Source of the DNA: Alphaproteobacteria bacterium
Lineage (GTDB): Bacteria > Pseudomonadota > Alphaproteobacteria > RF32 > CAG-239
DNA: 58,249 nt
Assembly: GCA_017961285.1 (NCBI GenBank)
Contig: JAGCXO010000032.1
Coordinates: 1-58,249 of the forward strand
Reading direction: 5' to 3'
The translations under genes were made by a program, and so were the position numbers. Below, piece after piece: positions 18,013 to 57,667 of the stretch. A model generated the notes under the pieces. It saw only the letters and a list, made by a program, of their open reading frames with translations. It did no database searches and had not been told where the DNA came from. Position 1 is the stretch's first letter; each line of letters opens with the position of its first letter.

Positions 18013-18034
18013 TTTTCTCTCCTTATAAGAAAAA

Positions 18035-18430
18035 CAGGCAGCCTGTAAGCCGGGTTCTGTATTCCACTATCTTTGCGCAGCAAAGGTTGGAATGATAGTC
18101 ATTCATCTTGGCGAAACATTGCTGCAACGCTCATCGCGACCTACCTCTGGAGTGGAGTGGAAACGCCCCATGTAACTTTTATTAAAAAAGCTCTCCTAAC
18201 TTGGTCTTGCTTCAAACAGGGTTTACCTATGCCAAAATTATTGCTAATTTTGCGGTGAGCTCTTACCTAGCCTTTTCAACCTTACCAAAGCAGTGTTTGG
18301 CGGTAATTTTCTGCGGCACTTTCCCTTGGATTGCTCCAGCCAGACGTTATCTGGTGTTTTGTTTCCATAAAGCCCGGACTTTCCTCATCCGCGGATTTTA
18401 CCTTCCGTAATGCGACTATCCGGCTGCCTG
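18035..18430 (-). ncRNA. rnpB: RNase P RNA, class A
   Basis: Minus strand: CAGGCAGCCGGAUAGUCGC..GAGGAAAGUCCGGGC..ACAGAACCCGGCUUACAGGCUGCCUG; the ends pair to form P1. Confidence 0.96.
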
Positions 18431-18590
18431 TGTATAAAATTAGTATATTCACAAGGAAAAGCAAGAAAATTTTTGTTTTTTATAAAAAAAATATCATTTT
18501 CTTGTATCCCTTTGTGTGCATGACTTTGAAGAGTGTTTTGCTCGTAAAAATACAGAACAAACAAAGAACATCGAGAAAAAAACTAAAATT

Positions 18591-39560: not shown

Positions 39561-39600
39561 AACAAAAAACTCCGGCGAGAATGTCGGAGTTTTTTGATTT
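39561..39600. repeat. Copy A of a 40-bp terminator direct repeat
   Basis: aacAAAAAACTCCGGCgAGAATGTCGGAGTTTTTTgattt; matches 40452-40492 with one substitution and one indel. Confidence 0.92.
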
Positions 39601-39616
39601 TAATACCCTGTTAAGG

Positions 39617-40000
39617 TTACTTTTCACAAATTGGAGTCACAAAGTAGTTTGTTTGTGCTGCTTCTCTGATTGCTCCTGTGCCTAACCAATCTACCACTCC
39701 TACAGTAACTACACAAAAATCTATAAGGCAACCCAAAAACGTTGTTGCATCTATTTTTGTTTCTACATGTCTTACTGAATCTCGGCATCCTTTTTTTGAG
39801 GCTCTTATTGTGACATTATCTGCCAATTTTTTCTTGGATATTGTTGCTACTCCTGCTCCCGTTCCGGCATATTCTTCCCCAATATAAATCTTTGCATCTC
39901 TGTCTTCTGATTGGACAATAATTGTCTCTTTTGTACCTGAGAACATTGAAGCACACCCTGAAAGCATCAATATTGCAGTTACAATGTATATTTTTTTCAT
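39617..40000 (-). CDS. Small lipoprotein (PEGA-like)
   Basis: MKKIYIVTAILMLSGC lipobox; AGGAG SD. Confidence 0.8.
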   Translation of the reverse strand: MKKIYIVTAILMLSGCASMFSGTKETIIVQSEDRDAKIYIGEEYAGTGAGVATISKKKLADNVTIRASKKGCRDSVRHVETKIDATTFLGCLIDFCVVTVGVVDWLGTGAIREAAQTNYFVTPICEK

Positions 40001-40120
40001 AATTAGGCTCCTTGAGTTGATATATTTAATATTTGCAAGACAGGAAAATGAAGTAAAATTTTATTTTTTTGTTGAACTAAAAATAGTATTAGTCATAATC
40101 CGATACCCTGTCTTTAGTTA

Positions 40121-40335
40121 AAGAAAAACCCACTTTCAAAGAAAGCGGGCGGATGTTCGAAAACCGTAAATCTAATAAGTAAAAAACGGCTCGGCTTATT
40201 CAGCTCATGGCCTTATTCAGCCGACATCCGTCCAAGACAGAAGTCGGCATATTTTTTAAAGTCGCTTATGCATATAGCGACTACTTATTAGATTTAAAGG
40301 GTTTCGATGCCCTAGATATGGTCTCCCATACCTAC
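40121..40335 (-). ncRNA. Candidate structured ncRNA/attenuator, element 1
   Basis: GAGA-loop hairpin; 15-bp perfect closing stem (40167-40181/40282-40296) extended by TCGAAA/TTTTCGA; internal hairpins; terminator at 40124-40149; no ORF. Confidence 0.6.
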
Positions 40336-40340
40336 TAATC

Positions 40341-40369
40341 ACTTTAGATAATAATCATTACTTTGTCAA
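40341..40369 (-). promoter_or_regulatory. Sigma70-like promoter of element 1
   Basis: TTGACA-N17-TAAAGT. Confidence 0.65.
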
Positions 40370-40451
40370 ACAAAAAACTTTTGCTTCACATGATTAAAGA
40401 AATTCGAGGATTCTTGATTTTTGCTGCACAAAAAAGGGATAATATTTTGGA

Positions 40452-40492
40452 AACAAAAAAACTCCGGCAAGAATGTCGGAGTTTTTTGATTT
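40452..40492. terminator. rpsI terminator (copy B of the direct repeat)
   Basis: AAAAAACTCCGGC-aagaat-GTCGGAGTTTTTT, 15 nt downstream of the rpsI stop. Confidence 0.9.
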
Positions 40493-41448: not shown

Positions 41449-41487
41449 ATTATCTCTCTTTTATAAATATGGGTTAAATTCTCGCTT

Positions 41488-41515
41488 AATATATACAAAG
41501 TTTTTTTGTTGTCAA
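41488..41515 (-). promoter_or_regulatory. Putative rplM promoter
   Basis: TTGACA-N16-TATATT. Confidence 0.5.
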
Positions 41516-41595
41516 TATAAAAAAACACAAAAAAATCAAATAAATATTGCACGGTATTATTATACCGTTTATTATCTTGTTGTTTTCTTTTGATT

Positions 41596-41994
41596 TTATT
41601 TACAGGTGTATATCAAATAACGACTATACGAAAAAGCTCCGCCGCCGAAAGCACTGGTATTGAAAGATGTTTGAGATTTGCCGAAACCTTGCGCTGATGC
41701 TCCGTTAGGGAAAATTCCGGCTTGTGCATTGATATTCGTGTTGGTATCTACATTTCCAAAAATCTGATTACCATTCAAAAAGCCGTTTGCCTGCTCGTTT
41801 GCCACAATAACATCAAACCCCATCGGGCAAGTTTTTCCGGCAAGGCGTAAGCAGTCTCCCATATTCAAAGTTTTTAAGTTGCCGCCGCAATCCGCCTGAT
41901 AGACTGTTTGTCCTTTTTCGTTGGTATATAAAATTCTGTTGCTGGTGCAAGCGGATAAGATAATAAAAAATGCAAGGACTAAAAATTTTTTCAT
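41596..41994 (-). CDS. Small lipoprotein of a prophage-associated type
   Basis: MKKFLVLAFFIILSAC lipobox with GAGG SD; VYQADCGG..DCLRLAGKTCPMGFDVI. Confidence 0.75.
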   Translation of the reverse strand: MKKFLVLAFFIILSACTSNRILYTNEKGQTVYQADCGGNLKTLNMGDCLRLAGKTCPMGFDVIVANEQANGFLNGNQIFGNVDTNTNINAQAGIFPNGASAQGFGKSQTSFNTSAFGGGAFSYSRYLIYTCK

Positions 41995-42022
41995 TTCAAC
42001 CTCTCTTTTTGTGAAAAAAAAA

Positions 42023-42266
42023 TAAAAAATACCGCCTTGCAAAAGGCGGTCGGAGAGTTCGAAAATCATATTTCGCAAAATGACTCTTTTAGCCTTTAGA
42101 AAACAAGTTTCCTGGACATACGCTAAAAGCTCCCCGACCTTTATCGGGGATAATTGTTGTTTTTCAAAAAACAACTGACGATGCTATCCAACACCGTGCG
42201 AAATAAGAGCTTTCGACAGCCCCGCACCTTTGCAGGCGCTGGCTTGTTTTGTTACAAAGCAAGCTT
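42023..42266 (-). ncRNA. Candidate structured ncRNA/attenuator, element 2
   Basis: GCAA-loop hairpin; closing stem TCGAAA..TATTTCGCA / TGCGAAATA..TTTTCGA; three internal hairpins; terminator ACCGCCTT-ttgc-AAGGCGGT plus U-tract. Confidence 0.55.
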
Positions 42267-42272
42267 GTTTGA

Positions 42273-42301
42273 AGTTTATGTGTATTTAATATCAAAGTCA
42301 A
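42273..42301 (-). promoter_or_regulatory. Sigma70-like promoter of element 2
   Basis: TTGACT-N17-TAAACT. Confidence 0.65.
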
Positions 42302-42512
42302 TAAAATTATCAAAGTATAAGGTAGTTGTTCTATCCAGCCTGCTAAGATCGACAAATATTGGTTTATCGACAACTTTTTCCGGTTTATAGGGTTCAGCCC
42401 AGCAGCGACAGTTGTAATCTTCCCCTGGGTTGCCACCTTCTGGGGGAATATGTTTGTTAAATATTTTTCCTTCGCGGGCTTTGTGGCTGGGGCGGACTTT
42501 GTCATCGTCTTT
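42276..42512 (-). pseudogene. Phage MuF (SPP1 gp7/Mu gpF-like) head-protein domain fragment
   Basis: Manual translation: KDDDKVRPSHKAREGKIFNKHIPPEGGNPGEDYNCRCWAEPY; no start codon, in-frame stop just upstream; not in the ORF track. Confidence 0.85.
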
Positions 42513-57591: not shown

Positions 57592-57667
57592 GGGCCCGTA
57601 GCTCAGTCGGTAGAGCATTTGACTTTTAATCAAAGGGTCGTGGGTTCGAATCCCGCCGGGCTCACCA
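57592..57667 (+). tRNA. tRNA-Lys(UUU)
   Basis: 76-nt cloverleaf, anticodon loop CTTTTAA, GTTCGAATC T-loop, encoded CCA. Confidence 0.97.

What the first reader, a model, noticed from the sequence alone, without database searches (positions are those of the whole stretch)
42023..42301. Second element with the same architecture, suggesting a family of RNA-plus-lipoprotein modules
Seen: TTGACT-N17-TAAACT, a GNRA (GCAA) hairpin, then GG-N-TCGAAA opening a closing stem, three internal hairpins, and a 3' end TTTTCGAACtcTCCGaCCGC.. matching element 1's TTTTCGAACaTCCGcCCGC.. running into a terminator. The interiors are unrelated in sequence. Both elements lie immediately upstream of MKK..LSxC lipoprotein genes, on either side of rplM-rpsI. 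Inference: a mobile RNA-controlled lipoprotein module (moron- or exclusion-like) whose variable loops may give specificity.
Basis: partly seen in the sequence, partly recalled or inferred. Interest (0 to 1): 0.75.

Follow-up and report, generated by a model that had tools for sequence, protein, structure and literature searches.

The report
Brt-like leader RNA before lipoprotein gene
The flagged stretch is a real, roughly 250-base folded leader RNA with its own promoter and terminator; it belongs to a large RNA family found across Alphaproteobacteria, missing from the RNA catalogue, that includes the Bartonella Brt RNAs and probably decides whether the gene behind it is expressed.

Summary
Element 2 (42301-42014, minus strand) has a promoter, a strongly folded RNA and a terminator 20 nt before a lipoprotein gene. 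Its 3' motif matches element 1.

It is not a private "RNA-plus-lipoprotein" family. A covariance model built only from free-living Alphaproteobacteria hits element 2 at 68.9 bits. It hits element 1 and its relatives weakly but always at the right place. It hits a Bartonella Brt-type locus at 30.4 bits and the traM leader of pTiC58 at 81.9 bits. No Rfam family reaches threshold; element 1 relatives resemble sRNA-Xcc1 below threshold.

The long-range helices covary across 102 sequences. A conserved C-rich tail can pair with a conserved G-rich segment or take part in the terminator. In free-living species the tail instead complements the ribosome-binding site.

Downstream genes are diverse: autotransporters, pilins, nucleases, XRE regulators, lipoproteins. 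The best reading is a riboswitch-like attenuator with an unknown signal.

The "mobile module" idea has partial support. A sister genome lacks element 1 and its gene, which are flanked by 37-nt direct repeats.

The parts
42273..42301 (-). Element 2 promoter: -35 TTGACT (42301-42296), 17-nt spacer, -10 TAAACT (42278-42273)
   Evidence: Homologues in the genus have TTGACA-like and TAnnnT boxes at the same relative position.
42224..42264 (-). Two 5' hairpins, H0 (42264-42242) and H1 (42239-42224). H1 directly abuts the core, as in all family members.
   Evidence: MFE fold. An equivalent hairpin lies before GGGG in free-living forms and in the Brt-type locus.
42045..42226 (-). Conserved core of element 2, as matched by covariance model R1.
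- P1a 5' strand: GGGG 42223-42220.
- P1: TCGAAA 42216-42211 pairs with TTTCGA 42064-42059.
- P2: 42204-42197 pairs with 42077-42070.
- Hairpins: 42196-42179 and 42175-42156.
- P3: 42151-42130.
- P4: 42129-42086, with the near-invariant GTATGTCCAGG (42121-42111) and CTAAAGG (42099-42093).
   Evidence: R1 scores 68.9 bits, E = 2e-14. Helices covary in 102 sequences.
42130..42139 (-). Segment X, GGTCGGGGAG. It is the 3' arm of P3 and also the complement of the tail.
   Evidence: X is nearly invariant. X:tail is paired in 98.4% of cells.
42048..42057 (-). Tail X', CTCTCCGACC. It is complementary to X and mimics the 5' arm of P3. Its last 3 nt are the first 3 nt of the terminator stem.
42014..42050 (-). 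Intrinsic terminator of element 2: stem-loop 42050-42031, T-run 42030-42014
41596..41994 (-). Lipoprotein gene controlled by element 2 (132 aa, MKKFLVLAFFIILSAC...). The SD (AGAGAGG) and the ATG follow 20 nt after the T-run. No Pfam family matches.
   Evidence: No promoter-like site was found between the terminator and the ATG.
40341..40369 (-). Element 1 promoter: TTGACA-N17-TAAAGT
40124..40334 (-). Element 1 RNA.
- 5' hairpin: 40334-40313.
- Core: 40316-40144.
- P1: TCGAAAC 40307-40301 pairs with GTTTTCGA 40164-40157.
- X: GGACGGATGT 40233-40224.
- Tail: ACATCCGCCC 40156-40147.
- Terminator: 40150-40128 plus a T-run.
   Evidence: Fold z = -7.3. R1 scores 17.3 bits at this exact place. sRNA-Xcc1 scores 30.7 bits, below threshold. 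The family consensus shows compensatory changes in P1 and P2.
39617..40000 (-). Lipoprotein gene downstream of element 1 (127 aa, MKKIYIVTAILMLSGC...)
39564..39600 (+). Direct repeat copy (rpsI-terminator sequence) at the far end of the element 1 plus lipoprotein cassette. Its partner lies at 40456-40492.
   Evidence: The sister genome G020 has one copy and lacks 39601-40455.

Best explanation
Elements 2 and 1 are 5' leader RNAs of one superfamily of structured cis-regulators that is spread across the Alphaproteobacteria. Bartonella Brt1-9 are its only studied members.

Transcription starts at the element's own sigma-70-type promoter. The RNA folds into a long closing helix (P1a, P1, P2) around a multi-helix junction. 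P4 in that junction carries near-invariant internal-loop bases.

In this fold, P3 holds the G-rich segment X. The C-rich tail pairs with the 5' GGGG, the terminator forms, and transcription stops 20 nt before the lipoprotein gene. This OFF state is the default.

If the core is not held, X can instead pair with the tail. That removes the first bases of the terminator stem and lets RNA polymerase read into the gene (ON state).

In GC-rich free-living relatives the same core has no terminator. There the tail is complementary to the downstream ribosome-binding site, so the same toggle would act on translation.

What shifts the balance is unknown. It could be a small molecule, a protein or another cue.

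Shown here: family membership, the covarying helices, the conserved complementarity, the two types of output stage, and the gene contexts.

Inferred: the switch itself and its direction.
For: Family:
- BLAST finds both element types in most genomes of the genus, several copies each.
- Model R1 was built from 31 free-living sequences, with no gut or Bartonella sequences. It scores element 2 at 68.9 bits and its genus homologues at 37-67 bits. It scores 11 element-1-type loci at 12.8-24.2 bits, always at the right place and strand. It scores the Brt-type locus at 30.4 bits and the pTiC58 traM leader at 81.9 bits.

Brt identity of locus L153:
- The published Brt probe matches 27 of 29 bases.
- The primer Brt1asR matches the other end about 200 nt away.
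- A 118-aa XRE gene follows on the strand that the model matches.

Structure:
- On 102 sequences, 90.0% of cells are paired against 72.4% in shuffles. The covariation score is 0.50 against 0.21, and 0 of 500 shuffles reach it. All six P1 pairs show double changes.
- Cognate 5' and 3' segments pair at -29.0 kcal/mol against -18.8 for non-cognate ones.

Switch:
- X:tail is paired in 98.4% of cells and P3 in 87.8%. Both use the same X.
- X, the tail and the P3 5' arm all differ between element 1 and element 2 yet stay mutually complementary.
- The tail overlaps the terminator stem by 3 nt.

Two output stages on one core:
- Terminators in the gut forms.
- The tail is complementary to the SD in free-living forms, at -12.2 kcal/mol against -8.1 for control SDs.

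Layout:
- The gene starts 35-90 nt after the tail, on the same strand, with an SD, in most of the 108 loci.

Published Brt data:
- The transcript is abundant while trp is weakly transcribed.
- Deleting the 3' stem-loop de-represses trp1 (PMC5387305, PMC8070961).
Against:
- X and the tail are almost invariant within the element-2 type. The antiterminator pairing therefore rests on conserved complementarity and on the comparison with element 1, not on covariation within the family.
- For element 2, the terminator-ON fold is 10 kcal/mol more stable than the forced X:tail fold. Read-through would need an active trigger, and no ligand or partner is known.
- The alignment used for the pair counts was fitted to the model's structure.
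- Element 1 lies 146 nt from its gene, much further than is usual in the family.
Confidence: 0.7

Rival explanations
1. The elements are stand-alone trans-acting small RNA genes. They end at their own terminator and regulate distant mRNAs by base pairing. The downstream gene is only a neighbour.
For: They have their own promoter and an efficient-looking terminator. Brt1 knock-down changed badA expression, and pull-downs suggested mRNA partners (PMC5387305, PMC8070961). sRNA-Xcc1, which the element 1 type resembles, was described as trans-acting. Element 1 lies 146 nt from its gene.
Against: - The same-strand gene sits at a short, fixed distance in about 100 loci, whatever it encodes.
- No promoter-like site lies between the element 2 terminator and its gene.
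- The same core is coupled to two different output stages, a terminator or SD complementarity. That is hard to explain for a purely trans-acting RNA.
- Deleting the Brt1 3' stem de-represses trp1 in cis.
- A dual role is not excluded.
Confidence: 0.15
2. The elements are parts of mobile RNA-controlled lipoprotein cassettes (moron- or exclusion-like), and their variable loops give specificity.
For: The element 1 plus lipoprotein segment (39601-40455) is absent from sister genome G020 and is flanked by 37-nt direct repeats. Element 2 plus its gene is 99.3-99.7% identical to G020, against 88-96% in the flanks. All three copies in this genome precede lipoproteins. Free-living relatives sit mostly on conjugative plasmids.
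Against: - The RNA precedes many unrelated gene types.
- No recombinase, inverted repeats or phage genes belong to the unit.
- The variable hairpins sit at insertion-tolerant sites. They show no sign of pairing with anything in the window.
- Mobility of some cassettes does not explain what the conserved RNA core does.
Confidence: 0.1
3. The RNA is a constitutive attenuator or a stabilising 5' structure with no sensing function. It would set a low fixed expression level, or act as an RNA thermometer.
For: The default fold strongly favours termination. No ligand is known. The P3 helix of free-living forms is rich in G-U pairs, as in thermometers.
Against: - About 25 near-invariant bases in P4, X and the tail are kept across a whole bacterial class. 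That is far more than a terminator or a stabiliser needs.
- The competing, mutually exclusive pairings are conserved.
- In Bartonella, shifts between 27 and 37 degrees C did not change trp transcription (PMC8070961).
Confidence: 0.05

Closest known systems
Bartonella regulatory transcripts Brt1-9 with downstream trp (XRE) genes (Tu et al. 2016, PMC5387305; review PMC8070961)
   Same: - An RNA of about 200 nt with its own promoter and several copies per genome.
- It sits directly upstream of a promoter-less small gene.
- Its 3' structure attenuates downstream transcription.
- The same helices are present: 5' hairpin, GGG plus P1, P2, a small hairpin, P3 (CTCCCGG/CCGGGAG), the P4 loop (TGATGTTCAGG..CTAAAAG) and the tail (CTCCCGGA).
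- Model R1 matches the Brt-type locus at 30.4 bits.
   Different: - Brt was reported as Bartonella-specific and always paired with XRE genes. Here the downstream genes are lipoproteins.
- The output stage here is a canonical intrinsic terminator, not the GCGAGGGCGCTCGC hairpin.
- Extra hairpins are inserted.
- The Brt link rests on one unnamed 1.6-Mb genome, identified through the published probe and primer sequences.
sRNA-Xcc1 (Rfam RF02221; Chen et al. 2011, as cited in 10.1101/2025.06.18.660453)
   Same: - The element 1 type matches the whole 87-nt model: a G-rich 5' strand closing on a C-rich 3' strand around two hairpins, with a GGUUUU.GA.C motif before the tail.
- Xcc1 also lies directly upstream of a small gene (symE) and travels on integron cassettes, transposons and plasmids.
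   Different: - All scores are below the gathering threshold of 53 bits. Element 1 scores 30.7, its relatives 27.8-37.6, and element 2 scores 20.1.
- Xcc1 covers only the 3' half of the RNAs here and was described as trans-acting.
- Whether Xcc1 has the 5' partner strands was not tested.
Transcription-attenuation riboswitches and T-box-type leaders
   Same: A conserved, covarying sensor domain is followed by interchangeable output stages (terminator or SD sequestration). A shared segment chooses between two helices.
   Different: No ligand or partner is known. No Rfam riboswitch or leader model matches. The regulated genes share no metabolic theme; they encode surface, secreted and regulatory proteins.
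QfsR, an sRNA of RepABC plasmids in Rhizobiaceae (10.1101/533729)
   Same: A structured RNA of about 190 nt, conserved on conjugative plasmids of Rhizobiaceae, near the tra genes of pTiC58.
   Different: It is not related. Model R1 finds nothing at the QfsR locus (best score 6.1 bits elsewhere in that stretch). The family member on pTiC58 is the traM leader, about 11 kb away.

Membership tests
Brt RNA family (Bartonella regulatory transcripts) | Structured RNA of about 190-200 nt, transcribed from its own promoter | tested here: met
   Promoter and terminator scan. Fold z = -5.75. The transcript would be about 250 nt because of the inserted hairpins.
Brt RNA family (Bartonella regulatory transcripts) | Sequence and structure homology to Brt | tested here: met
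   Model R1 was built without gut or Bartonella sequences. It scores element 2 at 68.9 bits and the Brt-type locus L153 at 30.4 bits (E = 7e-7 in the locus). The conserved P4 loop, P3 and tail are aligned. L153 was identified through the published probe (27 of 29 bases).
Brt RNA family (Bartonella regulatory transcripts) | An XRE-type HTH gene (trp) lies immediately downstream | tested here: not met
   In the window both downstream genes are lipoproteins. XRE genes do follow other copies in the genus and in free-living relatives.
Brt RNA family (Bartonella regulatory transcripts) | The 3' stem-loop attenuates transcription of the downstream gene | not testable with these tools
   A terminator lies 20 nt before the gene.
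Brt RNA family (Bartonella regulatory transcripts) | Several copies per genome | tested here: met
   Three copies in this genome. Up to 6 model R1 hits per genome in the genus.
sRNA-Xcc1 (Rfam RF02221) | Score at or above the Rfam gathering threshold (53 bits) | tested here: not met
   Element 1 scores 30.7 bits and element 2 scores 20.1 bits. Twelve matches in eleven element-1-type loci score 27.8-37.6 bits, all full length.
Riboswitch-type cis-regulator | Conserved structured domain supported by covariation | tested here: met
   29 of 39 pairs have double changes, and the covariation score is 0.50 against 0.21 in shuffles. The alignment was fitted to the model.
Riboswitch-type cis-regulator | Mutually exclusive terminator and antiterminator pairings | tested here: inconclusive
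   X can pair with the P3 5' arm or with the tail. The tail overlaps the terminator stem by 3 nt. X:tail shows almost no covariation, and for element 2 it is 10 kcal/mol less stable than the terminator fold.
Riboswitch-type cis-regulator | The same sensor domain is coupled to different expression platforms | tested here: met
   Intrinsic terminators in gut forms. In free-living forms there is no terminator and the tail complements the SD.
Riboswitch-type cis-regulator | A specific ligand binds and changes the fold | not testable with these tools
   The only lead is the published heme-dependent Brt1-gfp read-out (PMC8070961).
Known housekeeping or catalogued RNAs (tmRNA, 6S, SRP, tRNA, any Rfam 15 family) | Match at the family threshold | tested here: not met
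   In the window, Rfam at gathering threshold gives only RNase P and a tRNA elsewhere. ARAGORN finds one tRNA only. Related loci have no hit on the element.
QfsR sRNA family | Homology to QfsR of pTiC58 (139,262-139,075) | tested here: not met
   Model R1 with filters off finds nothing at the QfsR locus. The sequence was read.

The most novel reading that the evidence does not exclude
Elements 1 and 2, the Bartonella Brt RNAs, the traM leader of Ti and RepABC plasmids and perhaps sRNA-Xcc1 form one ancient riboswitch class of about 160 nt. Its invariant P4 loop and junction would bind a single, still unknown small molecule or cellular factor. Through it, Alphaproteobacteria would jointly switch surface proteins, adhesins, pilins, small XRE regulators and the anti-activator of plasmid conjugation.
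Probability: 0.3. Interest if true: 0.85.

Novelty: new member of a known kind. Interest (0 to 1): 0.6.

Why it matters
The only published members, Brt1-9, were described as unique to Bartonella, where they gate a regulator of the BadA adhesin.

This work places element 2 in the same family as the Brt-type RNA. The family also includes hundreds of copies in gut, rhizobial, marine and plasmid genomes, among them the leader of traM on the Agrobacterium Ti plasmid. This turns a genus curiosity into a class-wide orphan regulatory RNA that is missing from Rfam.

If the signal were found, it would explain how many Alphaproteobacteria co-ordinate surface and secreted proteins, small regulators and plasmid transfer. 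It would also give the Brt field easier organisms in which to study the mechanism.

Tried and rejected
- tmRNA or tRNA-like reading of GGTTTTCGAAC..CCGCC: rejected. ARAGORN finds nothing, and TCGAAA/TTTCGA is a covarying long-range helix rather than a T-loop.
- Any Rfam family: none at threshold.
- QfsR as the plasmid relative: rejected.
- A search for sRNA-Xcc1 copies on plasmids, using the Rfam consensus as query, found nothing. I could not test whether Xcc1 has the 5' partner strands.
- Reading Brt on the strand implied by taking 'BrtProbe' as antisense gave only 6.5 bits. The other strand gives 30.4 bits. That strand also carries the XRE gene and fits the cloning orientation of primer Brt1asF.
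- A search for further Brt copies in G200 and in seven other small genomes of that family found only the one locus. The model search of whole G200 missed even that locus at its first-look filter.
- The ORFs overlapping element 2 (113 aa at 42164-42505 minus, 78 aa at 42154-42390 plus) were not pursued as genes. The conservation pattern there is one of compensatory base-pair changes.

Full report
**What is there.**
On the minus strand, element 2 starts with TTGACT-N17-TAAACT (42301-42273) and ends in a canonical intrinsic terminator. The terminator stem-loop is at 42050-42031 and the T-run at 42030-42014. An SD and the ATG (41994) of a 132-aa lipoprotein gene follow 20 nt later.

The roughly 250-nt transcript folds at -90.8 kcal/mol, z = -5.75. 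Element 1 (40369-40124) has the same layout, with z = -7.3. It lies between rpsI and a second lipoprotein gene.

The shared 3' motif TTCGAAC-N0-3-TCCGNCCGC occurs only at these two places in the window and in the whole 1.2-Mb genome.

**It is a family, and a large one.**
BLAST against 40 related genomes finds homologues of both elements in most species of the genus, often several per genome. It also finds a third copy, of the element 1 type, in this genome (C36).

Nearly all are Alphaproteobacteria. They include uncultured gut and rumen MAGs, but also Rhizobium, Shinella, Phyllobacterium, Sphingobium, Ruegeria, Sinirhodobacter, Hellea and Terasakiella. A few hits in other phyla are at the level expected by chance or from mis-binning.

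No Rfam 15 family reaches its threshold on the window or on these loci.

**One model links everything.**
I aligned 31 short forms of about 155 nt from free-living species and built covariance model R1 with a hand-checked nested structure. The model contains no gut or Bartonella sequences. Its scores were:
- 68.9 bits for element 2;
- 37-67 bits for element 2's homologues in the genus;
- 12.8-24.2 bits for eleven element-1-type loci, always full length and at the right place and strand, including the window copy at 17.3 bits.

Separately, every element-1-type copy matches the whole Rfam sRNA-Xcc1 model at 27.8-37.6 bits. That is consistent, but below the 53-bit threshold.

So the two elements are divergent subfamilies of one superfamily. 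Element 1 sits between the element 2 type and sRNA-Xcc1.

**Link to Brt.**
The layout recalled the Bartonella Brt RNAs, which were reported as genus-specific (PMC5387305). I used the published probe sequence (Table S6) to scan 401 genomes of the family that contains Phyllobacterium. One 1.6-Mb genome (G200) matched at 27 of 29 bases.

At that locus R1 scores 30.4 bits (E about 7e-7 within the locus) on the strand that also carries a 118-aa XRE gene just downstream. The aligned parts include P1, P2, P3 (UCCCCGGAAU/UCCGGGAG), the hallmark P4 loop (UGAUGUUCAGG...CUAAAAG) and the tail (CUCCCGGA).

The published primers sit at the two ends of this roughly 200-nt element. The cloning orientation of Brt1asF (BamHI, promoter-proximal, used for antisense expression) agrees with this strand.

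The Brt 3' hairpin GCGAGGGCGCTCGC corresponds to the GCGGGGGCGYACCGC hairpin that free-living forms carry between the tail and the SD.

This makes Brt a member of the family. Two caveats apply: it is one locus, and the genome carries no name.

**Structure.**
On a model-guided alignment of 102 sequences, the nested structure is paired in 90.0% of cells against 72.4% in shuffles. Double changes occur in 29 of 39 pairs. The covariation score is 0.50 against 0.21 in shuffles and at most 0.13 for slid partners.

All six P1 pairs covary: TCGAAA/TTTCGA, TTCAAC/GTTGAA, TCGTAA/TTACGA and others.

An alignment-independent check agrees. Cognate 5' and 3' segments duplex at -29.0 kcal/mol, against -18.8 for non-cognate combinations.

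The element 1 family shows the same closing helices, with compensatory changes.

**A conserved toggle.**
The G-rich segment X (GGTCGGGGAG, 42139-42130) is the 3' arm of P3, which is paired in 87.8% of cells. X is also complementary to the tail just after P1 (CTCTCCGACC, 42057-42048), and that pairing holds in 98.4% of cells. The 5' arm of P3 is a weaker copy of the tail.

Within the element-2 type, X and the tail barely vary. Covariation therefore cannot prove the X:tail helix.

Between the two subfamilies, however, all three partners change together. X changes from GGTCGGGGAG to GGACGGATGT, the tail from CTCTCCGACC to ACATCCGCCC, and the P3 arm from ATCCCCGA to CTTCTGTC.

RNAalifold on the free-living forms actually chooses the X:tail helix.

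In the gut forms the last bases of the tail are the first bases of the terminator stem. For element 2, the terminator fold is favoured by 10 kcal/mol over a forced X:tail fold. That fits a default OFF state, as reported for Brt.

In the free-living forms there is no terminator. Instead, the SD region of the downstream gene is usually CGGGGAG-like and complements the tail at -12.2 kcal/mol, against -8.1 for control SD regions. The share at or below -10 kcal/mol is 76% against 19%.

One conserved core with two kinds of output stage is the signature of a cis-acting sensor RNA.

**What it controls.**
In 108 element-2-type loci, a same-strand gene with an SD usually starts 35-90 nt after the tail. 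By simple signal-peptide rules:
- 11 are lipoproteins;
- 41 are other exported or membrane proteins;
- the rest are cytoplasmic.

Pfam on 103 downstream proteins gave these counts:

| Family | Proteins |
|---|---|
| Autotransporter | 7 |
| XRE HTH | 6 |
| APH kinase | 5 |
| SNase | 5 |
| DUF5818 | 4 |
| PEGA | 4 |
| GT2 glycosyltransferase | 3 |
| OMP beta-barrel | 3 |
| Pilin families (Bundlin 3, PilS 2) | 2-3 each |

In this genus the element 1 type does favour small lipoproteins (9 of 15). All three copies in this genome precede lipoproteins, and those in the window have no Pfam family. The lipoprotein link is thus local, not a defining feature.

**Mobility.**
The sister genome G020 is syntenic with the window. 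Per-segment identities are:

| Segment | Identity to G020 |
|---|---|
| Element 2, its gene and the spacer | 99.3-99.7% |
| rplM | 96.4% |
| rpsI | 91.7% |
| Upstream DNA | 88.0% |

G020 lacks 39601-40455, which is element 1 plus its lipoprotein gene. In the window that segment is bounded by 37-nt direct repeats of the rpsI terminator.

The free-living form is present on 388 plasmid records, 280 of them conjugative.

So RNA-plus-gene units do move or recombine as cassettes. No recombinase belongs to them, and mobility does not explain the conserved core.

**Verdict.**
Element 2 is a real new member of the Brt-type leader RNA family. Here that family is shown to be class-wide and uncatalogued.

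It most likely acts as a transcription attenuator of the lipoprotein gene, with an unknown trigger. The alternative pairings and the direction of the switch are inferred.

Earlier notes of this scan had reached the 'Brt-like' analogy for other gut copies. I had the same lead before reading them (note). I then tested it independently with model R1 and the published probe.

Noticed in passing
L182 2455-2611 (pTiC58, NC_003065.3 149,954-150,110); L174 (pTi1D132): The family member on Agrobacterium Ti plasmids lies between traH and traM. It ends 60 nt before traM, the anti-activator of quorum-sensing-controlled conjugation, and scores 81.9 bits with model R1. In all, 388 plasmid records carry the RNA, 218 of them from Agrobacterium and mostly conjugative plasmids.
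   Followed up: partly
window 39564-39600 and 40456-40492; L181 (G020:C22): 37-nt direct repeats of the rpsI terminator (97% identical) bracket element 1 plus its lipoprotein gene. The closely related genome G020 has one repeat copy and lacks the roughly 855-bp segment.
   Followed up: yes
window 41449-42305 compared with L004 (G020:C22): Element 2, its lipoprotein gene and the spacer are 99.3-99.7% identical between the two genomes. The adjacent ribosomal protein genes are only 91.7-96.4% identical and the upstream DNA 88%. This looks like a recent recombination tract.
   Followed up: partly
L153 2208-2296 (+): The Bartonella-like genome carries a second structured leader about 500 nt from the Brt-type RNA. 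It has its own TTGACA-N17-TATACA promoter and matches sRNA-Xcc1 at 40.5 bits (below threshold). It lies upstream of a 188-aa repeat-rich protein.
   Followed up: no
L153 1503-1703; PMC5387305 Table S6: The published 'BrtProbe' sequence has the same sense as the strand that carries the XRE gene and matches the family model. Read literally as a probe, it would not hybridise to that RNA. The table probably lists the target sequence.
   Followed up: partly
L033-L152, free-living forms, 20-50 nt after the tail: A hairpin with the near-invariant top GCGGGGGCGYACCGC lies between the tail and the SD in Rhizobium, Sphingobium, Shinella and others. It corresponds to the 3' hairpin of Brt. Its G-rich loop is another possible partner of the tail.
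   Followed up: no
L180 2076-2263 (pTiC58 139,075-139,262): QfsR, the published sRNA family of RepABC plasmids, is unrelated to this family.
   Followed up: yes
window 18030-18431 (-) and 57592-57667 (+): RNase P RNA class A (263 bits) and tRNA-Lys(UUU). These are the only Rfam or ARAGORN hits in the window.
   Followed up: no
window 42164-42505 (-): A 113-aa ORF runs through the promoter and the 5' part of element 2, so it is probably not a gene there. Other first-reader notes flag its upstream part as a MuF-like fragment. I did not examine this.
   Followed up: no
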